Assembly: GCA_965649765.1 (NCBI GenBank)
Contig: OZ287758.1
Location: 19,034,001 to 19,098,000 of the forward strand
DNA length: 64,000 bases
Origin: Bispira polyomma
Lineage: Eukaryota
Direction: 5' to 3'
Each line of letters starts with the position of its first letter. Position 1 is the stretch's first letter. Positions 5,965 through 64,000 of the stretch are shown in pieces. The notes under the pieces are model-generated. The model was given only the letters and a program-made list of their open reading frames with translations, was not told the DNA's origin and ran no database searches. A program made the translations under genes and the position numbers.

Positions 5965-5975
5965 ATTATAACAAA

Positions 5976-34865: not shown

Positions 34866-35079
34866 TGGATATCCATATGATCTCAATCAAACCCACAGGA
34901 AAGAAACATTCCAAACAGCAGCTGCAAGTCACTCAGCAACATTAAATCATGGCACAACCAATTCCTCGACAGTACAGGCAAATGTATCACAGATGTCACA
35001 GTCTGGATCCCGGTGTGATGACATCCCCACTACTGATCCACAATATGTGAAAACAATTTAGGACATTTTCCAGCCCATT

Positions 35080-38020: not shown

Positions 38021-41000
38021 ATCTTGGAATATACGCAAAAAACTTTCTCCAAAAATAGTAATATGTAAATGGTAAACAAAATTTAACAGTAACTAAATTG
38101 TTTTGGTGTAAATCTCTTGTAAAAATAAAAAGTTAAATTTGGTAACCTAGTGCAAAAAAAAGAATGAAAATGTAAAATTTATGTGAAATTAATTTGTAAA
38201 ATTAAAAAGTTAAATTTAGTGCTTTAGTGCAAAACAGTGAAAGTGTGATGTTAAGGTAATTGTAGTAAAATAATGTTTACTTTGTTAATGTAATTTTTAT
38301 TAACTGCAGAATTCTGCAAATGTATTAGTCACACAACAAAAATATGTAGTAAGTTGAAGTGACATATAAGCCCATGTGGGCTGGGCAACACTATTAAAAA
38401 TCTATTGTATATGTATTAATGTATTAATGAAGTGCATGTCACTGTAATAAATAAATAAATAAATATATAGAAGACAAACAGATCACAATAAAATCAGACA
38501 ACATGATGTGCGGTCTTCACGTACCAGAGATGATTATCTCAGTTTATGTTTGAGAAACATATGGCTAATATGTGCTAAAAATTAAAGGTTATCTAAGTAT
38601 TTTAATAAAACATATACAGGATAAAATGAACATTTTAGCAGGCACCCTATCAAGACTGCAGAAACTAGAGAACCAGGCAATTAATATTAGAAACTTAATA
38701 AAAGCTAATTTTGTTTATTCTGACATTACCCTTGACATGTACATAATGGACAATTTAATTTAATTTAATTTCTGACACATAAAGACCGCTGTTATAAAGA
38801 CCAGTAAAGAGACTACAACAGACCTACAGACCAAGAACAAAGAAACACTCATTTTGATTCTTTTTTTTTGCATGATTATGCTAATAAGCATTGGCATAAT
38901 CATGCTATCCTATAGATTAAAGAGTGTAGCATAGTGGTAACCATGGTTACATGGTAAAATCTTGTAGACAGGGTAATCTCAGAACTCGCAAGGATTTCAG
39001 TTTTCATATTTGGCATACATATGAAGTCTGTTTCAGTGACGGTCCATTTTTATTTGGTGTTAATATAGCTAGAATTAAGTGAGACATAGACATTTTCTGT
39101 TTTGGGATCATGAGCTTTGATTGAATTGTCCATTACCACCCATTTCTCTCTGTGAACAGCATACCCCCTCCCCTATACAAACACCTCTCAATTCATTGTG
39201 TTCTCAGGGGGGAAGGGGTTATGTGCCTACAGCTTGTGCAGAATATGTATATAAACATACACATACACCTGTTTTGATTTTATGCTTAGGGTGTGTTGTA
39301 AACAGGTTTTACAGGCAACACGTTTTTTAATCTTTTACAAATCACTCTCAGTTGTAGTACAGTGCACGGGCCACCTTAGATAAGGGCAAAAATGATATAA
39401 GAATGATATATTAAACACAGTCGTATAGCACTTTGGGCATTTATTACATCATCTAACATCCAATGTTAATAGGTTACAACATATAACATTTACTACTAAT
39501 GTACATGAGGTGGTGAGCTTACATATTTAGGTCACCTTACATCTAGATTTTACCTCTAACAGTAAGTGAGTTAAGGTCACCATAACTTATTACAAAATGT
39601 TTTAGGTTTACTAAAACAAGTGACTTAAGGTCACCTTAACTTGAATACTTCTTTTAATCTTTAATTAAGTTTAATAAAGGTCACCATAAATTAGTGATAA
39701 GTTTTTACTAAAGTAAACATGGTGACTTTAGGCCACCTTAGTTTAAATACTGACTTTTAATTTTAAAGTGAATTTTAGATGAGCTTAACCAAGCTTTATG
39801 GTGAGGTTATCTTATTGTAACCTTTGAAATGTAAAGGTAAAGTTTTATTTTCTACTGCTACTGATGGTATAGACTATATATTATAAAATATAGTGTAAAC
39901 ATATAGTATTTACAATGCCCAAACGCCATACCAGATGTTAATGTGGTATTGTTTGTTGTAGAGATTTTGCTACAGATGCCGATGCATTAGGGGTGGACTG
40001 CAGGTATGCCCATGTCTAACCTTATATGCTGTTAGAGGCACTAATTTACCTTGAACTTTGTACATAAATACTGGCGAATCCGTTGTTTTTATTAATTCTG
40101 AACATAGTTTCAAGAGCTGCTACAGGACTTAACAGAGAACGTCCTAGCTCCAATAACTGTAGTACATGGAACTGATCGTACTTTTGTAAAGTTTTTGCCC
40201 ACCGAAGTACAACATGTATTCCCCATACAAAATCCTCACACGTCAAGTGCCTCTGAGGATTGAAATCACTAGCACTGGTTGAAACCGGGTTTAAGAGCCG
40301 AAAGAAACCGAAAAAGGCAGTTAAAATTAATGCCTTATAGACATATGCATGTGGGAATGCAGAAACATGATGAAGGACAGATGTGAGAATAGGGATGGTG
40401 ATTATCCCTTTTAATCTAGGAGCATAGGGGGTGGGAAGTGAGAGAGACTTGAAAAATAACTTTATTTGAGGGTGAGCAAAAACACTCCAATTGCTGAGAG
40501 GTAATTTCGAATGGAGGGTGGTTTTAGCCCCTGCTGAGCCATGTATTCACAAAATTGGAGGATGACTTGCAGGGATGTCGGTTCTGCTGTCCCAATGAAC
40601 ACAGCAAATGATCATGAAACCGACTGGAGTTAAGCCCTGCAACCCCAGCCCCATTATCACACCATAATTTGACAGTACAATTTTGGAAACATGTACCCCA
40701 TCCCCATAAGGCAACTAGTATATTCCACATTTCGAAGTGGACTATTACAAATGTTTTAGGTTTGTCATCCGGCAGGGCCGCAGAATACACATTATCAGCC
40801 CACATGGCTCCAATTCCCACCAGGGATGCATCAACAAATAACTCAAATACCGGTCTGTCTTTTAAATGCATTTCAACCACCACATTGAATTTTCCTAAAA
40901 ATTCATTGAACCAACTTAGGTCGGCCCTGATATCCCTGGTGAGGGTAATGTTTTTGCTGGGGTAGGTTTCCCTAAGCAGTCGTAACATTCTGTTGAGGAA

Positions 41001-42657
41001 AAGTCGCGCAGTTGCGACACACCGATGCACATACAGCAGCTTTCCCATAATTGACTCTAAGTCTCTTCTAGTACAATGAGTTTTAGAACACCATTGTTCA
41101 CATGTGGCCTTAATTTGTTCCAATTTGTCATTTGGAATTGTAAGCGTACCTTTTTGGGCATTAACTAGAATTCCCATACACACACATTCATGAGCCGGGG
41201 GAAATACTTTTTGGGGGTTTATGGGCAACCCTAAGCTTCAATTAACCGGTATAAGTGATCAAAGGAATCTTTTGCTTTTATCTTTTTTCTTTATAAATCC
41301 ATATTTGGTATTGTTTGTTTTTCATTAGATGTCTGATACTATCCGTGCCGTGTTTATACCCCTATATCATTAATACGACTGACTAACATGTCAACAGTGG
41401 GAAGGGTAAGAATGAATTCATCATAAATGCTATCTGTAACTACACTATTTACTGAGGTAGCGTCATCCCCTTTTAAAGCTTGCTGCCATGCTTCTATATT
41501 TAGTTCAGAGGGAACAGGCCTAAGTAATTAGGGCACCCCTCCCTAGTGACTGCATTATGTGCTACAATGGCCCATTGCTCTGACAAATCAAATTGCAAAG
41601 TTCTTCTTGAGTCTGGGATCCCCCCCCCCCCCCACAGCATTATAAATGCAATTGAAACCAAATGTTTCACTTGACTTTCCAGGGAACTCGTTTTTATTGT
41701 CATATGAGTGGTTTGAGGTGGTAATTTCCACCAAGCCCAAATTGCCAATTAGGGGTTCGGCCTGAAGGATTACTTTGTTTTTGACACTGCGTGAGTGACC
41801 CCTTGTGGGTGTATGACATTGATTGGAAGATTTTGGAGGGGGGGGGATCTTGTCCCCAGCTGTACAGAGGGGGAGGAGTTGCAACTACTACTATCAACTA
41901 ACTTTCATTCAACACTGTTCTAGATCTTACTGGCTGTCAGTTTTAAGCAGCCTTCTGAAAATCCTTGGAATGATTCTGAGTTTCTCCACAATGAATTTCC
42001 CTATGCAACTGTACACGCTTTCCCTGACTGTAGCACTTTGAACACGCATGTTTCAGAATCATGGTGCCAAAAACGTGGTCATCAGTCTGCCTACACATGC
42101 CCTTATTATAGGCACTGCACATGAGAATCGAACTTTTTACTTTTTTTTTTTGACCAGCACTTGCACCTTGAGGTGCCCGTTAGTAGAGGCATCCTTCAAT
42201 GTGCGTTGCATGAGGCGAGCCCTTAAGTCATGGATCTGACTTAAACTGGCCTTTCCCTTTCCCATCTCTAAGAGCACTTGACAATGGGCACTTCTTACGG
42301 TGTACCATGATGTTTCCAACCCATCTCTCATGAGCTGCATGGCATATTTTAGCATATTATCACGCATATTATTTTCTTTAAGGTTACTCCTAGCACTGAC
42401 ACAAAGTGCCGCGCATCTTCTGTAAGGCAGGGCCCTAGCTCTGGCGCTCTCAGTTCTGGGGGACCAGTCTTAGTCTTCACGCTTCAGTGCTTGCGGGCTG
42501 TATATAAGGCAGCTTCAGTCAAACGTCCCGCCATTTATAACAATAGTGTTCACAGAATAACAACTTTGGAACGGACATCTTGGAAATTCAAGTTTATGTT
42601 GCAGATTTTCTTTCTGTTTTAGTCTTTCAGTGTATTTTATCAGTTTTAAACTTTACA

Positions 42658-43683
42658 ATGCCTCCCGTGTATCATTGTTCGAGGTGTCAAGAGAAGCATG
42701 AGAGGCCGGTTGGCAATGCTTGTACTCTGGAAGCCGTGTCTGTTGAAGCCACTGCTAGCGCTGTTTCTGCTGAGGATTCATCCACTCTCCCTTCAAATTC
42801 GGGTTCAGATATTGTTTCTACTCAAATTTTACTGCAACTGCAGTCCATGGCCCAGATGATGGAGCGCATGGACCAGAGAGTTCAGCAGACAGAAGCAGCG
42901 CTGGCGGCGGACGTTCATAACAAGAATCAGGCTAGTATTGTTTCAAATTCTGTTGTTAACAGTAGTTCTGTGAGCACCGATACCAGTGAAGTTTTATCCA
43001 CTGAAACTGTAGTTCCGAATATAGAATTTTTACGGAAGAACAGTCAAATTCAAAGCCAGGTTGAATTAAGGCTGGCGGAGTTAAAACAGCTAAATGAAAA
43101 CCCACAGCAAGGTAAACTAAAGTCACAAAGGGGAGGGGGCGCTGATATATTGGTCAAGTGCGTCGTAGAATGGCCCCAAAACCACGTCTTGACGGGTAGT
43201 TGTAAATCAAGGCCCACATATGATGACTTATCAGTCAACCAATGGGTATGTGGTTTTACGCGCATCATCCAGGAAGAAAAGTCAAATGACATTAGGGAAA
43301 TTATGCTAGATTATATGGCTAATCTGATGGAAGATGCAGAGGATTTCTCTTGGGAGTCGGCAAAAGCTTGCCATGCGGTGGTGCTTACCCACATGGAAAT
43401 GGGGAAGGTTAAATGGTCAGAGGTCGAGAAGCTTGACAGATTCAGAAGGGCTCATGCCCAGAGACATATTGCTAGCAATCATTCTGGTAATAATAATCGT
43501 GGTTTGAATAAAACACAGGCCTCGGGTAAGCAGTCCACAGCGAACTGTAAGTTCTTCCAGGATGGTACGTGTAAGTTTCCCAACAGTCACAAAACCGGCA
43601 ATACCTACTTCAGGCATGGTTGCGAAACCTGTGGGGGGTCACACAAATCCACTGCATGTAGTAAGAAGAGTCTAAAAAACTGA
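42658..43683 (+). CDS. Gag-like ORF1 of YR element 2
   Basis: 341 aa from ATG 42658: N-terminal CxxC/H/C motif, WPQNH..YDDL..W..GF, FSWESAK..HA..L, C-terminal Cys/His cluster. Confidence 0.85.
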   Translation: MPPVYHCSRCQEKHERPVGNACTLEAVSVEATASAVSAEDSSTLPSNSGSDIVSTQILLQLQSMAQMMERMDQRVQQTEAALAADVHNKNQASIVSNSVVNSSSVSTDTSEVLSTETVVPNIEFLRKNSQIQSQVELRLAELKQLNENPQQGKLKSQRGGGADILVKCVVEWPQNHVLTGSCKSRPTYDDLSVNQWVCGFTRIIQEEKSNDIREIMLDYMANLMEDAEDFSWESAKACHAVVLTHMEMGKVKWSEVEKLDRFRRAHAQRHIASNHSGNNNRGLNKTQASGKQSTANCKFFQDGTCKFPNSHKTGNTYFRHGCETCGGSHKSTACSKKSLKN

Positions 43684-46193
43684 GGGGCCACTGCAATTCT
43701 GCAGTGGAAAATAGCAAAGACAAAATTTTTTCCAGAACTTTTTATAACTCAGAGTTTTGTAATTTGCAGTTATTTGATAAAGACGTAAGGGGTAAAATGC
43801 TCACTTACAATAAAGGTAAACGTGCATGCTGTTCATAAAGTGACGCATTACAAAATGTAAATAGCACAAACAAACAGGTCATTGTAAATAAAGGTAAAAG
43901 TGTCAAAATGTTCAGTGGGCGACTGGGGGATGCACGTGCAGCTGTGGATTTGACGCGAGCACACAGCCAGATACCCTCAAACGCCAATAGAACCTTGGGT
44001 GTAACACCTGTACATAAGGGTCGTGTTTACTTTGGCCCAGCCACGTGAAAAGCACAAAAGACCTGTGAGCGGGGGCAAAGTAAGCACACCAAGGAAACAA
44101 TACTTGGACGTACCAAGCCTATTATTGAATGTCTCCCGTATAAAGCACCAGTCAATAATAGTGTCCACGGAGATGCCTTGTGGCATAACAGATTTCAACC
44201 CCTATACCAAACCATTGTTGAACTCAACAATGGGGAGGTCAAGGATAGCGTGAACACAAACGAGAGTGTTAATGACAAGCCACAACAAGGTGTGAAAAAA
44301 CAAAGGCGGTTGATTAAACACAATGCTGGGAATCAGGGTAATGACAGAAATGTCAACACAAATCCAACATATCACTCAGTTGCCCCTTCAGACAAGTACG
44401 CTTTGGGGCTTAAGCAAAAACGCAAGAAAGGGGAGTTGCTAACTAAAGCCCGGACCGATGACACGTACAAGGCGTGGCATGAGCAGAATGACGTCGACTA
44501 TGGATTCATTCCACTTAACACTTTAGGAGAAAAAATTTGGGATAGGGGGGCGAAAAATCATGGCCTAAATACCTTCCAAATGCATGATAAATTAAGAGCT
44601 GATGGCAGACACAATTATAAGGGTCTCCAACTTGTGGTCGAATCGCAATTAAATGCCGACAAATGGCAAGATTACCTCGCTAAGTATTGGGACTGGCAAC
44701 TGCCCCTGCTCGTTAAGCACGGTTTCCCGTTAGACGTATGTCGAGCTAAAGTCAGTCAGTCGGACAATTGTAATCATAGTTCGGCGGAAACCTTCCCTGA
44801 ACATGTGGAGACGTATCTCAAGGAGGAGCGTAACTTTGGCGCTATATTGGGCCCCTTTAAGGACCCCCTATTAGGGACTTGCATTGTTCGCCGATGATGA
44901 CACGTGAGAAGTCCACCTCCGCTAATAGGAGAGTGATAGTCGATTTGAGTTGGCCACATGGTCAGTCGGTTAACGCAGGTGCTTCGGCTAACTCCTACCT
45001 TGACACTGATTTTATTCTATCATATCCTTCCATTGATAACATTACTATTGAAGTAACCAGATTGGGTAGAGGATGTCATATCTATAAGATTGACGTAAGT
45101 AGGGCCTTTAGGCACGTTCCCATAGACCCGGGTGACATCGATCTCCTTGGTTTAAAATGGAGAGAATTCTACGTCGATAAATGTCTGCCCTTCGGGTATC
45201 AGAATGGTAGTACCATTTTTCAGCGCCTTTCGGACGTGGTCAGATTTATAATGAAGGCGGACGGATACAAAGTTCACAACTATTTAGACGATTTTTTGAC
45301 CGTATCGTTGCCAAGTAAAATAACAGCCAGTTACGAACGTCTTCAGGCCTTGCTCAAGGAGTTTGGCCTCACGGTCAGTCAGAAGAAGTTGATTCCTCCC
45401 AGCACACGGGTAGTATGCCTAGGCATACTAATAGATACTGAAAATTATACCACCTCTATCCCGGACGAAAAAATGCAGGAAATCACGGCCAAGTGCGACA
45501 TGTGGCAAGGGAAAGAATTCTGTACTAAAAAGGAATTACAGTCGTTATTGGGCTCCCTCTTGTATGTAGCCAAATGCATTAAATATGCTAGAGTCTTTTT
45601 GAACCGCATGTTGCAATTCCTCAGAGACAATTATAGCAAAAGTCGGTTGATAGTCACTGAGGACTTCAACAGGGATTTAAATTGGTTTACAACCTTCATG
45701 AGGCATTTCAATGGCGTGTCTTTTTTCTCGCATAAGGCTACCCATGCACAGGTAGAATTAGATTTATGGTATGGGAGGCATCTGTGGCAATGACGTGTAC
45801 AAACTTAACGTACCCTCACACATGACCAGTGACAACATAGCGTCGCTTGAAATGATCAACATACTCGTTGCCCTTAAGCTATGGTCCAACGTGTGGCAAG
45901 GAAAAAAAGTTATGTTCAAATGCGACAATCAGGCAGTGGTTAGTGTCATGGAAACCGGGCGTACTCAAGATCCTGTTTTGGCTGCCTACATCAGAAACAT
46001 TTACATGTGGGCTAGCAAATTTAACATAGACATAAGAGTTATTCATATTTTGGGGGTTAAGAACAAGGTTGCAGACCTTCTCTCACGTTGGGATAAAGTG
46101 AATAATAATGAATACCTACTTGCTCAATGGGCGGGGCCGGTTAACTGGTTGCACACAGATGCCACCCTCCTAGACATTGACTACACAATTTAA
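43674..46193 (+). pseudogene. RT-RNase H ORF2 of YR element 2, with stops and frameshifts
   Basis: RRVIVDLSWPHGQSVN, KIDVSRAFR, YLDD, CDNQAVV, ADLLSRW. Breaks near 43838, 44870 and 45765 relative to element 3. Confidence 0.9.
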
Positions 46194-46230
46194 ACATGTT
46201 GTATCTTTCCTGTGGTACTATGTTTCAGGA

Positions 46231-47217
46231 ATGCAGCCGTTGGACTCCCTATTAACAAATAGAGCCTGTAAGAGACTGCATTTTGCTTTTGCTGAATCAA
46301 CAGCCAGGGCCTATGATGCCATGTTTAGACTGTTCCTGGCTTTTGGAGCTTTCATGCAATGGCCTTTATATCAGGTGACTGTATTCAGAATTTTGTCATT
46401 TTTAGAGTTTCTGACTTTTAATCACATGTCTGCTGCTCAAGTTGCAAATCATCTGTCGGCTGTTAAAGTTAAATGCATTCTTTTTCATGTAAATGTGGAT
46501 TGCTTTGCAGAGCCACGCTTATCTTATTATAGTAGGGCTCTTGCTATTAATAAGCCTTTACAAGCCAAACTTAAAACATTGTTTGATATTCCTTTGCTAA
46601 CTGCATTGGTTGCCAAATGCGACAACACATACATGGGTCAGATCTTTAAGGCTGTTTATCGGACCAGTTTTTTCAGTTTCTTGAGGCTTTCCAATTTGTG
46701 CCCACACTCTGTGGCTGGGTTCTCTCCATTGAAGCATTTGGCCAGAGGGGATGTGTTGTTTAAGCCTGGGTACATAACTCTTTTAGTGAAATGGTCTAAG
46801 ACCATGCAGGTGAACAATCAAATTAAACTGTTAAATATTCCAGTCCTGCGGAACTCATCCCTTTGTCCGGTAGCTGCGCTGAAAAATGTGCTGGCCCTTA
46901 CCCCTGTTGGCCCTAACATGCCTCTTTTTCAGTATAAGTTGGGTGGTGCTTGGGTTCCGTTGACGGATACCAGGGTTAGGCGTCACTTGAAGAATGTGCT
47001 GCAGCTCCTGGGCTGTGCTAATGCTAACCTTACTTTCCATGCGTTCCGGCGTTCAGGTGCCACATTTGCCTTTAACAATAATGTCAACATACAGGACATC
47101 CAGCGGCATGGCACTTGGACGTCGGACTGTGTCTGGAGGTACATCACGGATTCGGCCCAGACGGGGTCCCAGGTCGCTGATTGCTTCAAGGGTGCGCTTC
47201 AGCCTACTTCTAGGTAA
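46231..47217 (+). CDS. Tyrosine recombinase of YR element 2
   Basis: FLRLSN, KWSKT, HAFRRSGAT, HGTWTSD, WRY; frame is open. Confidence 0.92.
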   Translation: MQPLDSLLTNRACKRLHFAFAESTARAYDAMFRLFLAFGAFMQWPLYQVTVFRILSFLEFLTFNHMSAAQVANHLSAVKVKCILFHVNVDCFAEPRLSYYSRALAINKPLQAKLKTLFDIPLLTALVAKCDNTYMGQIFKAVYRTSFFSFLRLSNLCPHSVAGFSPLKHLARGDVLFKPGYITLLVKWSKTMQVNNQIKLLNIPVLRNSSLCPVAALKNVLALTPVGPNMPLFQYKLGGAWVPLTDTRVRRHLKNVLQLLGCANANLTFHAFRRSGATFAFNNNVNIQDIQRHGTWTSDCVWRYITDSAQTGSQVADCFKGALQPTSR

Positions 47218-48880
47218 CTCTGGTGTTTGGTGGTTTCACGTCTATAGGTCACCTGTGCAAAAAGAATATATAAATGTTATGGTATAATAAACATAAATTT
47301 GGACAGTTCACAACCCCCTTGTCCTTGGGCATAAGGTCACCTTATATCTCGGTACATTATGTACTCTTACATAATTTATCTTCCAATCACTTCGCAACCT
47401 CCATAGTATGCTTTAAATCAACCTTAAACTCAAGGTAGGGCCAACAGTTCGGGCCCATTTACTTCCATACTGACTTGAACTCAAGGTATGTTCACAATGA
47501 ACTTCAAATTTAAATCGGGCTCACTAACGGTGCCCCTTCATTGGCATACTCTTGACACATTGGTTGCTAGTCTTAAACTCAACTTAGGGCCATCGTTAGG
47601 CCCCCTCAAAATTCTTCTTGAAGGTGACCTTAAGTCTACCTTATTGTTATATAAAGAATTTAGACTGACTTTACGTTCACCTTAAACTTTCACTCACTGT
47701 AAGGTGACCTTATGCCCCTCAACTATAATCCGAAACTGTACATACTATACCTGTAGAACTAACCATGCTAGTCATTAATAAATATTTACCCGCAAGTGTT
47801 TTTCTGTGTTGCTAAAGGAATTATAAAATTATTAAGGTTTCTATTACTAACTTTCCCTTGGCCCACGGGGAACTGTACACTTTACTTTCCATTACACACA
47901 AGTTTTAAATGCTTTGTTTTGTGGCCAACCAAAAATCACTTGGGCTTCATCAGAACTAGAAAGTTATTATGGGCTGTGATGTGTGTGTATATATTGTAGG
48001 GGGTACTTTAGGATATCAATCTGAAACTATTTATATTTCACTGGGTACTTTTGGTAGTTAAATTTAAAATTTATATCAATATTTCTTTTGTTCTTTTCAA
48101 ATCGCAGAAGTGCCTCCTATAAAATGGTAGATGTGATCTCATTATTATTACAAAGTACTTTTGGGTAGATCCAATGACTTTTTCCTTTCACATGCTCTTG
48201 TTGCATAGTTCTACCTGTAGAGGGTGTAAAACAATTTTTTTTACATTAGATTAAATATAAAATACTTGCAGTATTAAATGGCCCATCAGTATATTATTTA
48301 AATTTTTAAGTTTGGGTTCTTTTCTCTGTTCCTTTGTTATCACCACGTCAATCTCTTATTAATTGTTCTCTCCAGCTCCAGTATTTGCAGGGCCAGCACA
48401 CTCTCCCACACTTATTTATTATTATTTAACCCCCAGTTTAAAAGTAAATACGTGATAAGATCATAAAAGAGAAAATCCAGTGTTGGCTCTGTATGTGTAA
48501 TTAGTTTGAAATTGTTTAATGCTGTATTTATGTAAACTTCCTATCTGGGAAATGAATGTCAGAAATGCAGGAATAAGATGCAGCAGTTAGTGTTGATAGT
48601 GTGAGGGTGGAGATTGGCAAGTGTGGAGGGTGTTGTGTGTGTGCTATAATGCATCTGTGCAAAAAATATATTAGATAGATTTATATTCTAGCACTAGGGT
48701 TTACATGTTTATTAATTCCAGCACATCCTAGATTCCTACATTAGTTACATATATCTTTTTGTAACTGTTATATATGTGGCCTGTTTTTGACAGTACATAC
48801 ATGTATAATCATTTCCGAATGAAGGTCGCTAGAGTAGAAAGATTATGTACATGTTTTCTGTGCCAATAATGTACGATATT

Positions 48881-50237: not shown

Positions 50238-50445
50238 AAGCCAAGGTTGCTCCACAACTTTATGGAAAGCCTAGGTTGTTCCCTAACTTCATGAAAAACC
50301 AAGTTTGCCCCACAACTTCATGGAAAGCCTATGTTGTTCAATAATTTCATGAAAAAACAAGGTTGCTCAACAACTCATTGAGAAGCCAAGGTTGCCCCAT
50401 GAGAAGCCTTGGGAGCTCCACAATTTCTTCAGAAAGCCATATTGT
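50238..50445 (+). repeat. Degenerate 29-bp minisatellite
   Basis: AAGCCAAGGTTGCTCCACAACTTCATGGA-like units at 50238, 50267, 50296, 50325, 50354 and 50383. Confidence 0.75.
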
Positions 50446-53400
50446 TCCATATGACACCCTGGTTTGTCCTTACTTCTATTCTTTTTGATGGAAGGCATCG
50501 CAGGTCCAAAGATTCAGGAATTAATACTGGTTCTAGGAAAGACCCTGGTTTATCCTGTCACAGCCATTGATCCTCAGTCTCAGGAAGTCATGCTGGCCTT
50601 ACGAAAGACACTGTCTTGTCTTTACACAGTCTTTTAGATTTCTACAGCCTTAGAGTGAGGTACAGTTTGATGATTAGTCTTGAGGAGTTTTAGAAATTTT
50701 TCTACTTTTTGTCCAGCACGTGCAGTTTTCCTGTTCCTCCTATAGTTTTGCCAGAAAATCTTCCAAGAAACCTTCATTTTTCATCACAGGACATATAAAG
50801 TTTGGCAGAGGCACAGTTTTTTTATTGGGTTAGCCAGTACCTTGTGTCATTACACCTCTGGAGCATTTTCCTGCTCAAGATTAAGTCGTCGGTAAAATCT
50901 TAAATTTTTAGGCCACACATCTTGGTTCAGAGGGGCTTCTTTCCTCAATCTCTTCTTCACTGGACACTGGTTTACAATGTTGTAGATTTAGCATATGATC
51001 ATTTAACGGTCACATCTCCAATGAAGTTTGTGTTTCTTGTAGAGACGATAGCTTCAATGGAGAAGCAGATTACATTAGTAAGGTGTCACCCGCGGCTTTT
51101 CCAGTAGTATATAAGAAAAGACTAGAATTTTCTCCTGTTCTTGGATCTGAGGGTTCCAGTCGAGTATGTCTTGTCTTGTTGACTCGTCTTAAATGATAGA
51201 ACAATCCCCACAATATTTTAAAGGAATTTCCACTCCATCCAGAAGAACATTATGTCTTGTTGATCACGGATGCCCTAGAGAATGGGTGGGAAACTAGCAT
51301 AGAAACCATCAGTGTAAGTGGTCCATGGAGATCCTCAAATGCACATCATCACATAAATCTGTTGGAAGATAAAGGCTGTGTTGGTTTTGAGGTTATTATT
51401 CTTGTTTTTCTCAGACAACACCACGGTGGTGTCTGATACATTCCATGGAATTCGGTAGTTTCAATTATGGCTAACATGGAGAAGAAATACCTTTGTCAAG
51501 GCGTCACCTCAGGCCATCCCAATGGTATCTCCTATGGTTATGGAACTATCACCAGTCTCTTGATCTGGGGATTCCAGTGGATTCCACTTTCTTCTTTTAT
51601 CTGAAATGGTGTAACAATTGCTAGTATGTTTGAATGGTTCATCTCTGTACCCGAAACATGTGTTGCTCTTCACAGCTTCCTCAGAGGGGGTATAGCGAAC
51701 TCGCATGAACATTCTTAGTGTAAGTGTTCTGTAGATTCCTTCATTAACACATATTCATTTTTATTAGAAATGAAAGCTGTTTCACTAACAGAGGCTACAT
51801 GTCACAGTGCTGTCTTATCTGATCATGTTAGGTGGAAGGTGTTAGGTGGAGAGTTAGAGCATGGACAAAATCCAATGTTTTTTGTCTTCATACATGCAGG
51901 GTCGTACCCAGGTAAGTGGTGTTCAAATGTTCTGGTTGGCTCCCTATCCAGGAGGTACAAGGACATTCAGAGTGTTCACTCCACTATCACGAGTTCACTG
52001 CAATCTGCAAAGGTTGGCATAGTTCACACATACACAGATTTGCAAGCATGCTGATAAGCTTCCTCTGTGCGTTTTAGTCAAGCTTGTCACTCACAATTGC
52101 CAGATATTTTTTGGGGCTCCAGGATGGCCATGGATTCCATGGTTCAGAATTCTAATAGATCATTCACCAGGGTTCTACTACTGTTGAGTCAGCTTCAACA
52201 GTTTTCACAACAGTCTGGATTTCCTGAACATTTGTGTAGTATTTCAAGTCAGACCACAATATTCGTGTTTTTCACAATCACGTGTTTTTCCAAGCACTGA
52301 CTGTTGTCTAAGTTACAAAATCTTTTGTTTAGTTTTGTTTCACACAAGGATTGAAAAATGGCCACAAGGTAATATTTTTGAGGCTTTTGGAAAGCTTTAA
52401 CAGAGAACTATTCCGTCTGGATGGTTTTAGTTTAGGCAGACGAAGGAATGAGATTCTCATTCTTCTCTCAGTTTTAACTTTTGGTCTCAAATTACTTTTC
52501 AACCGTATTTTTGTCAAAGAATCAGTAGCCTGATACCCTTTGACCAGCCCTTTAGACATCTCTTAACAAGCTTTACTTTTGAGGATGTCTCTTTGTGTAC
52601 TGTTAGAGTTCTTATGTTTTCTCTAGGTGGAACTAATGACTTCTGGACAGTTTCTTAAATCTTTTGCTTGCTTCCATGAACAGAATCACTCAAAAGATAT
52701 TTATTATGCTTATATTTCCTTCTGAATATTTTGATCAGGAGGTGCAATAAGTCTCTCAAGATAGGGCCTATGATATGAGGGCCTATTCCTTGTTCTTTGG
52801 AGGGTTTTGTCTTTTTATCAAGTTTTGGAAGCTTGTTTCTCAAGTTTCTTGCCACTTTCTTTTATTCTGTCTTAAACTTGTTCCTCTGGAATATCAGGGC
52901 ATTTTTAAGTTGGGAACTATTGTATCTGCTCAGTCTATTGTTTACAATAGTGGCTTGTTCATGATGTCTTAGTTCCTTACGAGTTTGTAACAGAGCTGTA
53001 TATGCATCTGTTATTAGCAGTATGCTGTAGTACTGATGACAGGGTTTTAATCTCCCTGATAAGAGTACTCTAACACTTTCCTGTTGTTAGTTAGTGATGG
53101 GATTGTTGGAAGTTTCCATGTTCTTCCATCAGCCATCATATTATGTTTGGTGAGTAAATATGATGGAATTTCACATATATTTACAATGTTTAGTTTTGTG
53201 TAATGCATTATAATTCTTTATGTATTCAAATGTTCTTTGTAGTATATTTATATATGTCTTTGGCATGGGTTTTTCTTATGTACTGGATGGGTTCCAATAT
53301 CTATTTGCTCATAGGTAATGTTTTCCTATTCCTTTTCCTGGACCGGAGATGGCCTCAAAGTTGGAGGGAAACCAGTTTAGGGTTGAAGCCAGTAATGGAA

Positions 53401-53729
53401 CAGATTTAGAGTTTGTGCACATTTGGGCATTTATTCTTAAATATATATTCATTAGTACATTAGTAATATTACAACATCAAGCTACGTTATTTACAGTTTC
53501 AAGTTTACTTTAAGGTCACCTCAACCTTATCTGAGCATAAAATTTGTAAGTAGGGTGACCTTAACTTAAGTTTAAGGCGGGTGTTTTTCCTTCTTAAATG
53601 TCACCTTTATAACGTTATTTAAATAAATATAAGGTTACCTTAAGAGTAACTTGTTTTAAGGTAAACTTAAGGTTTTTATATTTATACAAAGTGTAATAAT
53701 ACTGTTAAACTATGTGTAAAACTACATAT

Positions 53730-53733
<4 letters not shown>

Positions 53734-53782
<49 letters not shown>
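53734..53782. repeat. (TA)n microsatellite
   Basis: About 24 TA units replacing the YR C-terminus of element 5. Confidence 0.95.
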
Positions 53783-53784
<2 letters not shown>

Positions 53785-54135
53785 AGCCAACATGAGCCAT
53801 TATCGACTGAAACTCAACATTGTTATCAAAGGCCAGGGTGGCCCTCGACCTACGAAAAGCATGAAATGTAAATAAAGGAGGATTTAGTAACAATTTTACA
53901 ATAATTTCCCTTAATGTGCATCTTGCTTTTATAAGCAGTGAGGGGTATTGGCTGGTTGCCCAGTTTACACATGAATACCCAGTTTACACATGGATATCAG
54001 TGAATTAATACAGTTATTATTTATTCTAAACATTTTTCTGAGGACAGAAACAGGGCAAAGCTCCGAACAGCCCAAAGAGGGAATCTGGACCACATGATAC
54101 TGGTTGTATTTCTGCAAATTTTTGACTTTGACTTG

Positions 54136-54316
54136 TACCGGTGACCTTAATACATAAGCTCACCACCTCATGTACATTAGTAGTAAATGTTGTATGTTGT
54201 AACCTATTAACATTGGATGTTAGATGATGTAAAAAGTGCCCAAAGTGCTATACGACTGTGTTTTATGTATCATTCTCATATCACTTTTGCCCTTGTCTAA
54301 GGTGGCCCGTGCACTG
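54136..54316 (+). mobile_element. 181-bp mini-element equal to the 3' terminus of the element-4 family, inserted into the YR gene of element 5
   Basis: Closely matches the reverse complement of 39360-39536; ends GGCCCGTGCACTG. Confidence 0.85.
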
Positions 54317-56879
54317 GACCCCAGGTGGGTCCCACACAAAGTCCTTACTGGTAAGATGTCGCTCTGTGTCAAATTGGGACACACTTAAAGGTACTAAATT
54401 GGACAATCTAAAAAACCCAAAGAGGGCTGTTAAAAACAAAGCCTTATACATGTAAGAATGTGAGACGCCTTTACACTGATAAACAATAGCCCTAAGTATT
54501 GGGAGGGTGATTATCCCTTTAAGCTGTGGGGTGTAAGGGGTTAAGAGAGTTGGAGATTTTATGAAGAGTCTAATCTGGGGGTGAGTAAATGCTCCGCATG
54601 GATAGTCCCACAAGTGGAGCTGATGCTTTATAGCAGACATATAGTTCTGAATTGAGAGGGGCTTGAGCCCCTGCTGAGCTAAATACGGAGCATACATTTA
54701 AGTGACATGATACTTGTATTCCCCATGAATATAGAGAAAGCTAACAAAAGCCTAACACACTTACTATATGCTTGATTTGTTTTCGGTCTCGGGAGAACCT
54801 AAAATAAAAGAAATCTACAAATGCGATGGGATCACCTTGTCTACAACCCCTTTCTATATTTATAAACTTGGTAGTTATCCCACATTGCATCACTGTTGCT
54901 TTGACGTTTTTATTGAATGTTCCTTCCTATGGGCGGCTTGTGCTTTCGAAGACACGTAACACGATTAAAGACTGGCATGACTAGAGTATAGGAGAGGTTA
55001 AAATACTTAAAAAAAACAACTTAAAATAAAAGCACATAGACTGGAGAATTTAGTGGGGGCTGTCTTTTATAGAGAGACGAGCCATCCCATAATAGTAGCA
55101 GTCTGGTCCTCTGGAAATGACCCTGTTAACGCCAAGGCGCTACCTTGCACATTTTCCACCGTTGTTGAACCGTCCATACCATTTTGTCCATATTTTCAAA
55201 CGTACATTAGCAGTTTACGCCCAATCTCGCCCATTCATGACCCGTTGTCACCAGTACATACCAGTTTGCAAACCATTCTCCCACTCTCTAACGGTTTTAT
55301 CCCTATTTGTTTACGTTCTGCTTAAGGTTTTAGCAACGTAAACGCAAAAAAAACGATCCCCGATAACCACGTTATGTGTGCTTGAGCTTCTCAGAAACTG
55401 CACAATTTTTTCTTGGTGGCCTTAAATTCGATTTATAGATAACATATTTACATTTTCATGAGTAGAAATAATAAAGAATGACATATATTTTAATTATACT
55501 AATTCATATATTTTTCGTATCATTTTAAGTGGTATCTTGAGACATAAATACATATAGCAGTGTGCAATATTGTAACTAAAATGGGTAATATTTTCAAAGT
55601 ACATGCTTCACAAACGTGACACAATTCATATACCAAGAAGGGATCAATACTGAAGTATTGTACATGCATGACTAGAAAACTGAAAACATCAGCAATATTT
55701 TGAATAAATTTGTTTTTTAAAAAAAAGTACAACAACGGGGATCATTTTAGAAAAACTTCAAAGTTACACTCTTCTAAATAGAAAGATACTTTCTATTCTT
55801 TGTTTATATAACATAAGGAGACATAAATAAAAATGTAATTCATTCAAAACAATATACACATTTTTTAAAGTTGTGTAGCCTATATAATATCTTTATATAT
55901 GCTGTATCAATAATCGTATTGTGTCACAATAGAAAGGGCTCTCTGCGAGAAATGTTTACAAATATGACGTTCTATATAGAATTTGAAACTGTGTGACGTC
56001 ACAATACACGAATCCTCGTTTGGGTGTTTTTATGGTTTTATAGCAAAGTATTGAAGTTTTAAATTGTCTGCACATATAAAAATAGTTAAAAATTTATCTA
56101 AAGTGTCCTTTTAAAGCCATCATAGTTGTGATACAGAGTAGAAATGGCCATTCGTAAAACATCATACTTTATCCCCGACGTGTTTTTGTGTTTACGTTAC
56201 TAACGCCTTAAAAGGTAACCTAATTATCATAGCATCCTTTCCAGTTTGCGCACATCTATAAACAAGAATGCAGTGACCGCTAGCAGTCACAAATCAAGAA
56301 TTCATCAAGATAACGAAACAACAGATAAAAATGAGTTATCACCTCCTAGGTTAAAATTACAGCTAGCTATTGTTTTTCTTTGTATAAAGCCGCTGTCACA
56401 CTATGCCGACCGATCGGAATGAGACCCCAATAATGCAATCGGGAGCAATCTTTAGCATTTTGCTCCGATTTTAGAAAAATAGGCAGGAAATTTTATGTCT
56501 TACGACTATAATTGTAATGGTTCCCGAGTCTTACGATAGGTCGGGAGTAAGGCCCGATAAAACGGGACAGATCGAGAATTTTACCAAAAAAATCCTCTTG
56601 ACAAAAATAAGTCAGGGCGATCATAAAGATTGGTCGTTGTCATCCCCGATAGGTCGTTATCATCCCTGATAGGTTGGTACCTTGATCTCGATAGGTCGGT
56701 ACCTTGATCCCAATTACTCGCTACCTCAAAGACATAGATCTTGCAATTTTGCAATCGGGAGATGTACGGAACCGCTATAAAACCCTATATATAGGAAGAA
56801 AATCCACAAAATCCAGACAGTTTTTATTGAAACACAACCTGGTACCGCAAGGCACTCCCACCTGGACTGAAGATTGCAA

Positions 56880-59370: not shown

Positions 59371-59683
59371 TTGACTAGTCTCACTTATTCTTTATAAGAA
59401 AAAAATAGAAGCCTGTTGTAATCATATAACATAAAAATTGCAAGTTGTGAGGCAGGGCCCCAGCTCTGGCGCTCTCAGTTCTGGGGGACCAGTCTTAGTC
59501 TTCACGATTCAGTGCTTGCGGGCTGGATATAAGGCAGCTTCATTCAAACGTCCTGCCATTTATAACAATAGTGTTCACAGAATAACAACTTTGGAACGGA
59601 CATCTTGGAAATTCAAGTTTATGTTTCAGATTTTCTTTCTGTTTTTAGTCTTTTAGTGTATTTTATCAGTTTTAAACTTTACA

Positions 59684-60709
59684 ATGCCTCCCGTGTATCA
59701 TTGTTCGAGGTGTCAAGAGAAGCATGAGAGGCCAGTTGGCAATGCTTGTACTCTGGAAGCCGTGTCTGTGGAAGCCACTGCTAGCGCTGTCTCTGCTGAG
59801 GATTCATCCACTCCCGCTTCAAATTCGGGTTCAGATATTGTTTCTAGTCAAATTTTACTGCAACTGCAATCCATGGCCCAGATGATGGAACGCATGGACC
59901 AGAGAGTTCAGCAGACAGAAGCAGCGCTGGCGGCGGACGTCCATAACAAGAATCAGGCTAGTATTGTTTCAAATTCTGTTGTTAACAGTAGTTCTGTGAG
60001 CACTGATACCAGTGAAGTTTTATCCACTGAAATTGTAGTTCCGAATATAGAATTTTTACGGAAGAACAGTCAAATTCAAAGCCAGGTTGAATTAAGGCTG
60101 GCGGAGTTAAAACAGCTAAATGAAAACCCACAGCAAGGTAAACTAAAGTCACAAAGGGGAGGGGGCGTTGATATATTGGTCAAGTACGTCGTAGAATGGC
60201 CCCAAAACCACGTTTTGACTGGTAGTTGTAAATCAAGGCCCACATATGATGACTTATCAGTCAACCAATGGGTATGTGGTTTGACGCGCATTATCCAGGA
60301 AGAAAAGTCGAATGAGATTAGGGAAATTATGCTAGATTATATGGCTAATCTGATGGAAGATGCAGAGGATTTCTCGTGGGAGTCGGCAAAAGCTTGCCAT
60401 GCGGTTGTGCTTACCCACATGGAAATGGGGAAGGTTAAATGGTCAGAGGCCGAGAAGCTTGACAGATTCAGAAGGGCTCATGCCCAGAGACATATTGCTA
60501 GCAATCATTCTGGTAGTAATAATCGTGGTTCGAATAAAACACAGGCTTCGGGTAAGCAGTCCACAGCGAACTGCAAGTTTTTCCAGGATGGTTCGTGTAA
60601 GTTTCCCAACAGTCACAAAACGGCCAATACCTACTTCAGGCATGTTTGCGAAATATGTGGGGGGTCACACAAATCCACTGCATGTAGCAAGAAGAGTCTA
60701 AAAAACTGA
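59684..60709 (+). CDS. Gag-like ORF1 of YR element 3
   Basis: Intact 341-aa ORF, near-identical to 42658-43683. Confidence 0.88.
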   Translation: MPPVYHCSRCQEKHERPVGNACTLEAVSVEATASAVSAEDSSTPASNSGSDIVSSQILLQLQSMAQMMERMDQRVQQTEAALAADVHNKNQASIVSNSVVNSSSVSTDTSEVLSTEIVVPNIEFLRKNSQIQSQVELRLAELKQLNENPQQGKLKSQRGGGVDILVKYVVEWPQNHVLTGSCKSRPTYDDLSVNQWVCGLTRIIQEEKSNEIREIMLDYMANLMEDAEDFSWESAKACHAVVLTHMEMGKVKWSEAEKLDRFRRAHAQRHIASNHSGSNNRGSNKTQASGKQSTANCKFFQDGSCKFPNSHKTANTYFRHVCEICGGSHKSTACSKKSLKN

Positions 60710-63228
60710 GGGGCCACTGCAATTCTGCAGTGGAAAATAGCAAAGACGAAATTTTTTCCAGAACTTTTTATAACTCAGAATTTTGTAATTTGCAGTTATT
60801 TGATAAAGACATAAGGGCTAAAATGCTCACTTACAATAAAGGTAAATGTGCAGGCTGTTCATACAGCGACGCATTACAAAATGTAAATAGCACAAACAAA
60901 CAGGTCGTTGTAAATAAAGGCAAAAGTGTCAAAATGTTCAGTGGGTGACTGGGGGATGCATGTGCAGCTGTTGATTTGACACGCGCACACAGCCAGACAC
61001 CCTCAAACGCCAACAAAACCGTGGGGGTAAGATCTCTACATAAATGTCGCGTTTACTCTGGCCCAGCCACCCGAAACGAACAAAAGACCTGTGAGCGGGG
61101 CCAAAGTAAACGCACCAAGGAAACAGTGCTTCGACGTACCAAGCCTGTTACTGAATGTCTCCCATATAAATTACCAGTGAATAATAGTGTACACCGAGAT
61201 GCCTTGTGGCATAATAGATTTCAACCCCTCTACCAAACCATTGTTGAACTCAACAATGGGGAGGTCGAGGATAGTGTTAACACAAACGAGAGTGTCAATG
61301 ACAGCCCACAACAAGGTGCGAAAAAACAAAGGCGTTTGATTAAAAACAATGCTGGGAACCAGGGTAATGACAGAAATGTAAACACAAATCCAACATATCA
61401 CTCAGTTGCCCCTTCAGACAAGTACGCTTTGGGGCTTAAGCAAAAACGCAAGGAAGGGGAGTTGCTAACTAAAGCCCGGAGCGATGACACGTACAAGGCG
61501 TGGCATGAGCAGAATGAAGTCGACTATGGATTCATTCCACTTAACACTTTAGGACGAAAAATTTGGGATAGGGGGGCCAAAAATCATGGCTTAAATACCT
61601 TCCAAATGCATGATAAATTAAGAGCTGATGGCAGACACAATTATAAGGGTCTCCAACTTGTGGTCGAATCGCAATTAAATGCCGACAAATGGCAAGATTA
61701 CCTCGCTAAGTATTGGGACTGGCAACTGCCCCTGCTCGTTAAGTACGGTTTCCCGCTAGACGTATGTCGGGCCAAAGTCAGTCAGTCGGATAATTGTAAT
61801 CATAGTTCGGCGGAAACCTTCCCAGAACATGTGGAGACGTATCTCAATGAGGAGTGTAACTTTGGGGCTATATTAGGGCCCTTTAAGGACCCCCCTATTA
61901 GGGACTTGCATTGTTCGCCGATGATGACACGTGAGAAGTCCACCTCCGCTAATAGGAGAGTGATAGTCGAATTGAATTGGCCACATGGTCAGTCGGTTAA
62001 CGCAGGTGCTTCGGCTAACTCCTACCTTGACACTGATTTTATTCTATCATATCCTTCCATTGATAACATTACTATTGAAGTAACCAGATTGGGTAGAGGA
62101 TGTCATATCTATAAAATTGACGTAAGTAGGGCCTTTAGGCACGTTCCCATAGATCCGGGTGACATCGATCTCCTTGGCCTAAAATGGAAAGAATTCTACG
62201 TCGATAAATGTCTTCCCTTCGGGTATCAGAATGGTAGTACCATTTTTCAGCGCCTTTCGGACGCTGTAAGATTTATAATGAAGGCGGAGGGATACAAAGT
62301 ACACAATTATTTAGACGATTTTTTGACCGTATCGTTGCCAAGTAAAATAACAGCCAGTTACGAACATCTTCAGGCCTTGCTCAAGGAGCTTGGCCTCACG
62401 GTCAGTCAGAAGAAGTTGGTTACTCTCAGCACACGGGTAATATGCCTGGGCATACTAATAGATACTGAAAATTATACCACCTCTATCCCGGACGAAAAAA
62501 TGCAGGAAATCACGGCCAAGTGCGACATGTGGCAAGGGAAAGAATTCTGTACTAAAAAGGAATTACAGTCTTTATTGGGCTCCCTCTTGTATGTAGCCAA
62601 ATGCATTAAATATGCTAGAGTCTTTTTGAACCGTATGTTGCAATTCCTCAGAGACAATTATAGCAAAAGTCGGTTGATGGTCACTGAGGACTTCAACAGG
62701 GATTTAAATTGGTTTAGAACGTTCATGGGCCATTTCAATGGAGTGTCTTTTTTCTCACATAAGGCTACCAATGCACAGGTAGAATTAGATTCATGTCTAA
62801 CAGGTATGGGGGGCATCTGTGGCAATGACGTGTACAAACTTAAAGTACCCGCACACATGACCAGTGACAATATAGCGTCGCTTGAAATGATTAACATACT
62901 CGTTGCCCTTAAGCTATGGTCCAACGTGTGGCAAGGCAAAAAAGTTATGTTCAAATGCGACAATCAGGCAATGGTTAGTGTCATGCAAACCGGGCGTACT
63001 CAAGATCCTGTTTTGGCTGCCTACAGCAGAAATATTTACATGTGGGCTAGCAAATTTGATATAGACATAAGAGTTATTCATATCTTGGGGGTTAAGAACA
63101 AGGTTGCAGACCTTCTCTCACGTTGGGATAAAGTGAATAATAATGAATACCTACTTGCTCAATGGGCGGGGCCGGTTAACTGGTTGCACACAGATGCCAC
63201 CCTCCTAGACATTGACTACACAATTTAA
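60700..63228 (+). CDS. RT-RNase H ORF2 of YR element 3 (-1 frame to gag; single TGA at 60946-60948)
   Basis: ORFs 60730-60948 and 60976-63228 share a frame. YLDD, LDSC, LEMIN, CDNQ, ADLLSRW. Confidence 0.88.
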
Positions 63229-63265
63229 GGATGTTGTATCTTTCCTGTGGTACTATGTTTTAGGA

Positions 63266-64000
63266 ATGCAGCCTTTGGACTCCCTATTAACAAATAGAGC
63301 CTGCAAGAGACTGCATTTTGCTTTTGCTGAATCAACAGCCAGGGCCTATGATGCCATGTTTAGACTGTTCCTGGCTTTTGGAGCCTTCATGCAATGGCCT
63401 TTATATCAGGTGACTGTATTCAGAATTTTGTCTTTCTTAGAGTTTCTGACTTTTAATCATATGTCTGCTGCTCAAATTGCAAATCATCTGTCGGCTGTTA
63501 AAGCTAAATGCATTCTTTTTCATGTAAATGTGGACTGCTTTGCAGATCCACGCATATCTTATTATAGTAGGGCTCTTGCTATTAATAAGCCTTTACAAGC
63601 CAAACTTAAAACATTGTTTGATATTCCTTTGCTAACTGCATTGGTTGCCAAATGCGACAACACGTACATGGGACAGATCTTTAAGGCTGTTTATCTGACC
63701 AGTTTTTTCAGTTTCTTGAGGCTTTCCAATTTGTGCCCACACTCTGTGGCTGGGTTCTCTCCATTGAAGCATTTGGCCAGAGGGGATGTGTTGTTTAAGC
63801 CCGGGTACATAATTCTTTTAGTAAAATGGTCTAAGACCATGCAGGTGAACAATCAAATTAAACTGTTAAATATTCCAGTCCTGCAGAACTCATGCCTTTG
63901 TCCGGTAGCTGCTCTGAAAAATGTCCTGGCCCTCACCCCTGTTGGCCCTAACATGCCTCTTTTTCAGTATAAGTTGGGTGGTGCGTGGGTTCCGTTGACG
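63266..64000 (+). CDS. Tyrosine recombinase of YR element 3 (truncated by window end)
   Basis: MQPLDSLLTNRACK..FLRLSN..KWSKT..LCPV, colinear with 46231 onward. Confidence 0.88.
   Translation, partial: MQPLDSLLTNRACKRLHFAFAESTARAYDAMFRLFLAFGAFMQWPLYQVTVFRILSFLEFLTFNHMSAAQIANHLSAVKAKCILFHVNVDCFADPRISYYSRALAINKPLQAKLKTLFDIPLLTALVAKCDNTYMGQIFKAVYLTSFFSFLRLSNLCPHSVAGFSPLKHLARGDVLFKPGYIILLVKWSKTMQVNNQIKLLNIPVLQNSCLCPVAALKNVLALTPVGPNMPLFQYKLGGAWVPLT

What the first reader, a model, noticed from the sequence alone, without database searches (positions are those of the whole stretch)
42420..47877. Full-length YR retrotransposon with no split direct repeats and no ITR/ICR
Seen: both ends are fixed exactly, because removal rejoins the host gag in frame through a shared CTGTA and the left end matches element 3. 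By eye, the 660 bp after the YR stop hold no direct or inverted copy of the 5' ~230 bp. A TATATAA (42501) lies ~80 bp inside the left end and AATAAA (47777) ~100 bp inside the right end. Elements 1, 4 and 5 also show no 3' copy of their left-end motif. Established: Ngaro/PAT elements regenerate their ends through A1..B1A2B2 split repeats, and DIRS1-like elements through ITRs plus an ICR. Inference: a transcript from this TATA to this poly(A) signal would omit both termini, so this lineage may use a different cycle, e.g. YR excision to a circle followed by read-around (pararetrovirus-like) transcription, or priming from the structured 3' region.
Basis: partly seen in the sequence, partly recalled or inferred. 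Interest (0 to 1): 0.82.

Follow-up and report, generated by a model that had tools for sequence, protein, structure and literature searches.

The report
Retrotransposon lacking its end-rebuilding repeats
A jumping gene of the tyrosine-recombinase type sits here with both ends intact but without the internal repeats that its known relatives need to rebuild those ends, so either this lineage copies itself in an undescribed way or these copies are dead-end products of ordinary parents.

Summary
Observation confirmed. Element A (42420-47877) is a gag / RT-RNaseH / tyrosine-recombinase retrotransposon with no methyltransferase (Ngaro-type gene layout). It is flanked by a 5-bp direct repeat (CTGTA). 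It has no split direct repeats, ITRs or ICR, although a planted repeat of 30 bp or more at up to 10% divergence was detected in every trial. A second, divergent element (E1, YR 38% identical) with both ends fixed also lacks them, as do two partial relatives. The four families share end motifs, a poly(A)-site layout 60-100 bp inside the right end, and arrays of a TAAGGT(G/C)ACCTTA palindrome. The ends resemble those of Cryptons. Corrections: A's pol is broken; the host gag is decayed, so 'in frame' is weak evidence; copy B has no intact TATA. Best guess (0.45): loss of the repeats is a lineage trait, and ends are copied from RNA spanning the joined ends of a YR-made circle or tandem dimer. Strong rival (0.35): these are repeat-deleted or one-junction products of ordinary Ngaro masters. 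No other genomic copies could be obtained, so the mechanism is untested. No description was found in 8 literature searches.

The parts
42420..42424 (+). Left 5-bp direct repeat CTGTA (recombination core TG/TGT)
   Evidence: TGT shared with copy B and E5 left ends
42421..42657 (+). 5' noncoding end: AAGGCAGGGCC motif, GGACCAG(A/T)C motif at 42461 (also in B, E1, E5), TATATAA at 42501
   Evidence: promoter role inferred
42658..43683 (+). gag-like ORF, 341 aa, open, Cys/His-rich C-terminus
   Evidence: 83 homologues, best 51% identical
43674..43707 (+). Putative -1 frameshift signal: A AAA AAC at the gag stop plus hairpin CCACTGCA/TGCAGTGG
   Evidence: identical in A and B; pol lies in the -1 frame; 34 of 83 gag homologues end in KN and 10 of 120 pol homologues carry a KK(L/R)..C motif in their first 40 residues; function inferred
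43671..46193 (+). pol (RT + RNase H, no methyltransferase); broken by 2 stops and 2 frameshifting deletions
   Evidence: 116 of 117 scored homologues end within 60 aa of the RNase H motif; model of B's pol folds as RT-RNaseH
46174..47217 (+). Tyrosine recombinase ORF, open (first ATG 46231), overlapping the pol end by 20 nt; residues matching the recalled YR catalytic set (R, H-x-x-R, W, Y) present
   Evidence: 369 homologues at E<=1e-10
47218..47877 (+). 660-bp structured 3' noncoding region, no copy of the 5' end
   Evidence: RNA fold z -5.15; z -4.23; 6 control windows -1.39 to +1.05
47327..47717 (+). 18-bp perfect inverted repeat (47327-47344 / 47700-47717) closing a folded domain; palindromic TAAGGT(G/C)ACCTTA-type motifs at 47247, 47335, 47623, 47703; GGGCC..GGCCC hairpins at about 47437 and 47587
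47777..47782 (+). AATAAA with upstream TGTA copies and downstream GT-rich tract (poly(A)-site layout)
   Evidence: same layout in A, E1, H, E5; TGTA counts 3-4 vs 1.2-2.8 expected, so only mildly enriched
47873..47877 (+). Right 5-bp direct repeat CTGTA; terminus ..GGCCC..ACTG(T) shared with the H family
59445..64000 (+). Copy B of the same family, 95.6% identical, 3' end outside the window
   Evidence: codon differences syn:nonsyn 18:15 gag, 14:15 RT, 16:10 YR, consistent with purifying selection
3033..7366 (+). Element E1, divergent relative with both ends fixed inside a ~146-bp repeat array, 5-bp direct repeat TTCGA, no terminal repeats, decayed
39357..47927 (-). Host element H (decayed YR retrotransposon) into whose gag A is inserted in opposite orientation; its 5' end was not found
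53330..55151 (-). Element E5, internally deleted relative; left end fixed by motif only, right end not fixed
54140..54316 (+). 3'-terminal ~180 bp of an H-family element inserted inverted in the E5 YR gene; fixes the H-family right end

Best explanation
A genuine YR retrotransposon lineage with an Ngaro-type gene set and Crypton-type ends, in which the absence of long repeats is a heritable trait. Shown: gene layout, exact ends with a TG(T) core and 5-bp flanking repeat, no repeats in 2 of 2 fully delimited and 2 of 2 partial elements, conserved noncoding motifs. Inferred cycle: (1) the integrated copy makes a TATA-to-AATAAA mRNA for Gag, Gag-Pol (-1 frameshift) and YR; (2) YR joins right end to left end, by excising a unit circle (as proposed for Cryptons) or by inserting a copy at a sister's end to form a head-to-tail dimer; (3) an RNA crossing that junction, made by read-through of the poly(A) site or from a promoter in the 3' region with first-pass suppression as in pararetroviruses, contains both termini and a terminal redundancy; (4) RT copies it and switches template to give new unit circles; (5) YR integrates them at TG(T) targets, often inside other YR elements. 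Steps 1-5 are all inference.
For: No SDR, ITR or ICR in A with adequate power for repeats of 30 bp or more. None in E1, H or E5, whose YRs are only 27-38% identical to A's. No solo end fragment of family A elsewhere in the window. 5-bp flanking repeats of different sequence in A and E1 match the description of Crypton ends and their proposed excision as circles (PMC3212892, passages). Joining the ends would place the 3' palindrome array (13 of 14 window hits of GGT[GC]ACC lie in these 3' regions; 4.7 expected window-wide) upstream of the TATA. The lineage is successful: 120 listed pol homologues at 47-61% identity, in clusters of up to 62 members, most on long contigs.
Against: Only four 3' ends from one 64-kb window, all in defective copies. 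E5's right end and H's left end are not fixed, and B's 3' end is outside the window. An interior TATA plus interior AATAAA is what an A1..B1A2B2 element would also carry. There is no poly(A) signal in the 5' UTR to end a read-around RNA, and 3'-UTR TATA-like boxes are not conserved (4 in A, 3 in E5, 3 overlapping in E1, 0 in H). Precedents for repeats being missed or lost: 7 of 15 T. cruzi VIPER copies had SDRs and Repbase consensus sequences lacked them (PMC6681497); no SDR in the DIRS-54_XT consensus (PMC9210276). No circle, dimer or junction-spanning RNA was observed.
Confidence: 0.45

Rival explanations
1. Ordinary Ngaro-like family whose master copies carry A1..B1-A2-B2. The copies here are A-ORFs-B dead ends made by B1xB2 recombination, by YR recombination between the internal B1|A2 junction and the right end, or by integration of one-junction circles.
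For: Ngaro gene layout. Interior promoter and poly(A) signals fit the SDR model. SDR loss is common among copies in other families, and solo AB recombination products occur in Cafeteria Ngaros (PMC8547959). All elements here are defective.
Against: It needs the same loss in 4 of 4 observed 3' ends from four divergent families. A is young (4.4% from B). No solo A-B unit or A2 remnant was seen: the 5' GGACCAG(A/T)C motif has 0 of 5 window hits in a 3' UTR.
Confidence: 0.35
2. Ends are rebuilt from the RNA alone by very short cryptic repeats (hepadnavirus DR1/DR2-like primer jumps or a miniature ICR) held in place by the folded 3' region.
For: 9-nt copy of the predicted junction core at 47696 (p 0.012); gapped inverted junction match at about 47432-47457 (p 0.013); strong folding; the H-family fragment in E5 begins within a few bases of the equivalent internal site.
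Against: Post hoc, several tests run, not replicated in E1 under three junction models. The 9-mer is largely explained by the palindrome half-site plus a TGTA element. Matches of 9-17 nt cannot template the roughly 110 nt and 75 nt that would be missing.
Confidence: 0.08
3. The genomic RNA is longer than the element: it starts at or upstream of the left end (host read-through or an internal promoter at the GGACCAG motif) and runs past the right end; YR then trims the cDNA to a unit circle.
For: B lacks a canonical TATA and E1 has none. GGACCAG(A/T)C is better conserved than the TATA. The elements are densely nested.
Against: TATA is positionally conserved in A and E5 and the poly(A) layout in 4 of 4. 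No ribozyme match in Rfam at either threshold. The stretch from AATAAA to the terminus does not fold better than shuffles in 5 of 5 ends.
Confidence: 0.09
4. Assembly collapse of B1/B2 repeats.
For: Repeats were missed in short-read assemblies of VIPER and TATE.
Against: The window has no N and resolves 29-147-bp tandem arrays and two 95.6% identical 4.5-kb copies; four separate collapses would be needed.
Confidence: 0.03

Closest known systems
Ngaro-like YR retrotransposons
   Same: gag, RT-RNaseH, YR in one orientation; no methyltransferase; short pol/YR overlap (quoted for Ngaro in PMC13003380); nests in other elements
   Different: No A1..B1A2B2 split repeats (reported sizes 152-236 bp in DIRS-53_XT); no SGNH hydrolase ORF; phylogenetic placement not tested
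Crypton DNA transposons
   Same: No TIR or long repeat; 4-6-bp direct repeats at both termini; YR; circle excision proposed (PMC3212892)
   Different: Cryptons encode no gag or RT; this YR scores weakly with Pfam Phage_integrase and had no DUF3504 hit
DIRS1-like retrotransposons
   Same: YR + RT-RNaseH; trinucleotide shared by both ends; insertion into own kind (PMC7192593, PMC3266345)
   Different: No ITR, no ICR (published halves 24-110 nt), no MT; ends are TGT rather than NTT
PAT-like and VIPER/TATE elements
   Same: YR retrotransposons; VIPER lacks MT and its repeats were long overlooked
   Different: Both have split direct repeats; PAT has MT; VIPER is confined to kinetoplastids and has gag-YR-RT order
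Pararetroviruses (caulimoviruses, hepadnaviruses)
   Same: RT-RNaseH fold similar (best PDB Foldseek hit CaMV RT, E 2.7e-20); analogy for transcription around a circle (recalled)
   Different: Analogy only; they encode no YR; the conserved region before the RT motifs aligns with ordinary RT fingers/palm, not a terminal protein

Membership tests
Order DIRS (YR retrotransposons) | RT-RNaseH plus tyrosine recombinase, gag-like ORF1 | tested here: met
Ngaro-like | No methyltransferase after RNase H; YR downstream in the same orientation | tested here: met
   pol stops about 35 aa after the RNase H motif; 116 of 117 scored homologues likewise; no Dam hit in 18 long relatives; 3 of 13 long tails are YR, the other 10 unassigned
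Ngaro-like | Split direct repeats A1..B1-A2-B2 | tested here: not met
   (in these copies; other genomic copies unseen)
Ngaro-like | RT/RH phylogeny within the Ngaro clade | not testable with these tools
   all homologues returned were unnamed; the reference alignments of PMC6681497 are in files that could not be read
DIRS1-like | Inverted terminal repeats | tested here: not met
   no inverted pair joining the termini
DIRS1-like | Internal complementary region | tested here: not met
   only a gapped ~17-nt match in A, unreplicated
DIRS1-like / PAT-like | Adenine methyltransferase domain in pol | tested here: not met
PAT-like / VIPER-like | Split direct repeats, including internally placed A2B1 | tested here: not met
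   first and last 60 nt vs whole interior, p 0.41-1.0
Crypton | Short 4-6-bp terminal direct repeats, no long repeats | tested here: met
   CTGTA in A, TTCGA in E1
Crypton | YR-only DNA transposon without RT | tested here: not met
   RT-RNaseH and gag present
Crypton | Excision as an extrachromosomal circle | not testable with these tools
   needs reads or PCR

The most novel reading that the evidence does not exclude
A widespread, recently active fifth structural class of YR retrotransposon ('retro-Crypton'): no long repeats at all, with a two-stage cycle in which the recombinase excises a circle, joining the ends brings a 3' palindrome array to the promoter, and a junction-spanning RNA is reverse-transcribed like a pararetroviral pregenome before re-integration.
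Probability: 0.28. Interest if true: 0.87.

Novelty: new variant of a known kind. Interest (0 to 1): 0.62.

Why it matters
Every described YR retrotransposon group rebuilds its ends from an internal copy (ICR or B1|A2), and for DIRS-1 that copy is experimentally required. A thriving lineage without one would need a different replication cycle. It would link Crypton-like excision with pararetrovirus-like transcription and give a direct test (a circle-junction read) of how YR retroelements replicate. If the rival is right, it is still a warning that one-junction products can dominate Ngaro copies and mislead annotation.

Tried and rejected
Two GTDB scans with YR and RT alignments found no relative (0 of 46 and 0 of 51 pattern matches confirmed), so no outside loci were obtained. 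Source organisms and accessions of the homologues remain unknown. Rfam found nothing at gathering threshold, and only 7 sub-threshold miRNA/histone-like matches, none at the element ends. An HDV-like ribozyme across the junction was considered by eye from a recalled consensus and dropped, because no P3/L3 could be formed. A terminal hairpin looping out the poly(A) site (HTLV-1-like, recalled) was rejected: z -0.05 to +0.62 in 5 of 5 ends. The 3' region as one long degenerate palindrome or tandem duplication was rejected: p 0.36 and 0.32 once the short stems are removed. A terminal-protein priming domain was rejected for the modelled part: residues from 22 on align with retroviral RT; Atlas hits for residues 1-115 were unnamed; the poorly conserved N-terminal ~300 aa were not modelled. 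The mini-ICR and 9-nt repeat did not replicate in E1 (the E1 junction used was mis-cut and is superseded). The sigma-70 scan is irrelevant for this DNA. Folding is strong in A (z -4.2) and H (-2.7) but weak in E5 (-1.7) and E1 (-0.95).
Full report
Setting. The window is AT-rich eukaryotic DNA full of transposon relics. Its host is unknown; an invertebrate animal is my inference. tblastn finds a cluster of related YR retroelements: E1 (+, 3038-7361), gag remnants (-, 25449-24950 and 23431-23345), a host element H (-, to 39357), element A (+, 42420-47877), E5 (-, 55151 to about 53340) and copy B (+, 59445 to the window edge).

Anatomy of A. It has a 237-bp 5' region, an open 341-aa gag, and a pol with RT and RNase H. 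The pol is broken by two stops and two deletions relative to B. Then come an open YR ORF and a 660-bp 3' region. A slippery A AAA AAC plus an 8-bp hairpin at the gag stop, with pol in the -1 frame, is echoed in homologues. Pol ends right after RNase H in 116 of the 117 homologues where the motif was found (120 examined), so there is no methyltransferase. The AlphaFold model of B's pol (pLDDT 92.5) matches caulimoviral, retroviral and Ty3 RTs. Relatives are abundant: 369 YR, 1153 pol and 83 gag hits, all listed ones unnamed. A and B differ by about as many synonymous as nonsynonymous codons, which points to descent through active elements rather than neutral duplication.

Ends. The left end is fixed by B, which shares sequence from TGT onward. 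The right end is fixed by the repeated CTGTA and by its likeness to the H-family end. That end is seen twice (39360 and 54316), and the two copies diverge right after ACTG. Weaker support comes from the host gag's WPQN motif 50 nt beyond the end (p 0.012 at 10 aa, 0.20 at 13 aa; not found by HMM). That motif is in a different frame from the junction, so the 'in frame' argument is weak. E1 sits in a 146-bp array whose register is restored through a repeated TTCGA; its exact left base is uncertain by a few nucleotides.

Absence of repeats. For A, 14 of 14 shuffle-controlled tests were negative (p >= 0.08). BLAST at word size 7 and a seed-7 repeat search found no terminal pair. Planted repeats of 30 bp or more at up to 10% divergence were always detected. 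Published ICR halves are 24-110 nt (PMC3266345) and SDRs 57-381 bp, so canonical structures are excluded for A. E1, H and E5 gave 12 of 12 negative tests; for H only B-type repeats could be tested, and E5's right end is not fixed. Against this: A's 3' region has a 9-nt copy of the predicted junction core (p 0.012) and a gapped inverted match (p 0.013). Both are post hoc and neither replicates in E1.

Conserved noncoding signals. Despite YR identities of 27-38% to A, the families share several features. GGACCAG(A/T)C lies near the left end (A, B, E1, E5). AATAAA..CCC lies 59-106 nt from the analysed 3' ends, with TGTA upstream (4 of 4). Arrays of a TAAGGT(G/C)ACCTTA-type palindrome occur in 4, 4, 4 and 2 copies in A, H, E5 and E1 (loose pattern). 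13 of 14 exact GGT[GC]ACC hits in the window lie in these 3' regions and the other in E1's 5' region, against 4.7 expected window-wide. Their role is unexplained. They contain an AAGGTCA nuclear-receptor-like half-site (recalled), could pair with each other in RNA or ssDNA (A's region folds at z -5.15), or could bind YR or Gag. The TATA is present in A and E5 only.

Mechanism. A TATA-to-AATAAA RNA would lack about 110 nt and 75 nt of the ends, with no internal template. DIRS-1 without its ICR cannot retrotranspose (PMC7192593). So the template must span the joined ends, or these copies were made by parents that had B1-A2-B2. I put 'trait of the lineage' at about 0.6 overall, and the junction-spanning version (YR-excised circle or head-to-tail dimer, read through) at 0.45, because the ends look like Crypton ends, for which circle excision is proposed (PMC3212892). 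The Ngaro-derivative rival gets 0.35. The interior promoter and poly(A) site fit it equally well, and SDR-less copies or consensus sequences are documented (7 of 15 VIPER copies with SDRs; DIRS-54_XT; solo AB units). It has to explain 4 of 4 losses and the lack of solo units. All steps of the cycle are inferred; none is shown.

Literature. Eight searches of the held library returned no description of a YR retrotransposon group without long repeats. A 2026 paper still lists only ITR/ICR and SDR types (PMC13465315). An amphioxus Ngaro-like element has a 'distinct' SDR arrangement (PMC2632668). I saw matched passages only, never whole texts, of PMC9210276, PMC6681497 (supplement list 40 and supplement search 61, file 13 and the .fas files unseen), PMC7192593, PMC8547959, PMC2632668, PMC4157794, PMC3783388, PMC13465315, PMC8556966, PMC12440569, PMC3212892, PMC3266345, bioRxiv 10.64898/2026.05.21.726589 (69, uninformative) and PMC13003380. 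Goodwin & Poulter 2004, Poulter & Butler 2015 and Repbase reports were not read and may describe such elements. The labels A, B, E1, E5 and H are mine. YY1, CFIm, nuclear-receptor, HTLV-1 and pararetrovirus comparisons are recalled, not tested.

Verdict. The feature is real and carefully bounded. It works like a YR retrotransposon with an Ngaro-type body, but it fails the Ngaro repeat criterion in these copies and its phylogenetic membership was not testable. It is a new variant if it is a lineage trait, and ordinary decay if masters with split repeats exist. Interest 0.62.

Noticed in passing
window 43674-43707 (+) and 60700-60733 (+): Likely -1 ribosomal frameshift signal joining gag and pol, echoed in homologues (gag ending KN; pol frame KKL..HC).
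   Followed up: partly
window 46216-46231 (+) and 5988-6009 (+): Both A and E1 have a CTATG(Y)n..AG stretch just before the first YR ATG, resembling a splice acceptor; YR may be made from a spliced mRNA (by eye).
   Followed up: no
window 54140-54316 (+): H-family 3' fragment inside E5's YR begins within a few bases of an internal TGTAAGG site that lies about 180 nt from the right end in both A and H; possible secondary recombination site or microhomology deletion.
   Followed up: partly
window 3490-3530 (+): E1's long 5' region holds palindrome-like motifs (TGACCTTAAG, GGTCAC) similar to the 3' arrays, though it has no significant similarity to E1's own 3' region.
   Followed up: partly
window 42527-42536 (+): CCGCCATTT, a YY1-like motif (recalled), about 25 nt after the TATA; mutated in B.
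   Followed up: no
window 55162-55149 and 55117-55110 (-): The sequence just outside E5's left TGT (TGGAAAATG) is complementary to CATTTCCA before its GGACCAG motif; in A the right terminus GGAACTG is likewise complementary to CAGTTCT before GGACCAG (by eye).
   Followed up: no
window 8685-8941, 25540-25797, 33183-33433: Three copies (85-91% identical) of a ~250-bp SINE-like repeat; one interrupts the gag remnant region near 25540.
   Followed up: no
window 33954-37799 (+), 8000-11530 (+), 20364-20879 (+), 56500-59374: LINE with endonuclease and RT, another decayed LINE, and DDE_Tnp_4 (Harbinger-like) transposase remnants; copy B is inserted next to the last.
   Followed up: no
window 12666-13468, 7362-7853, 50108-50399, 14526-14798, 20826-21167: Tandem arrays with periods 146-147, 142-151, 29, 91 and 114 bp.
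   Followed up: no
proteins P0379, P0389, P0438: More distant relatives carry RT-RNaseH fused in frame to the YR.
   Followed up: partly
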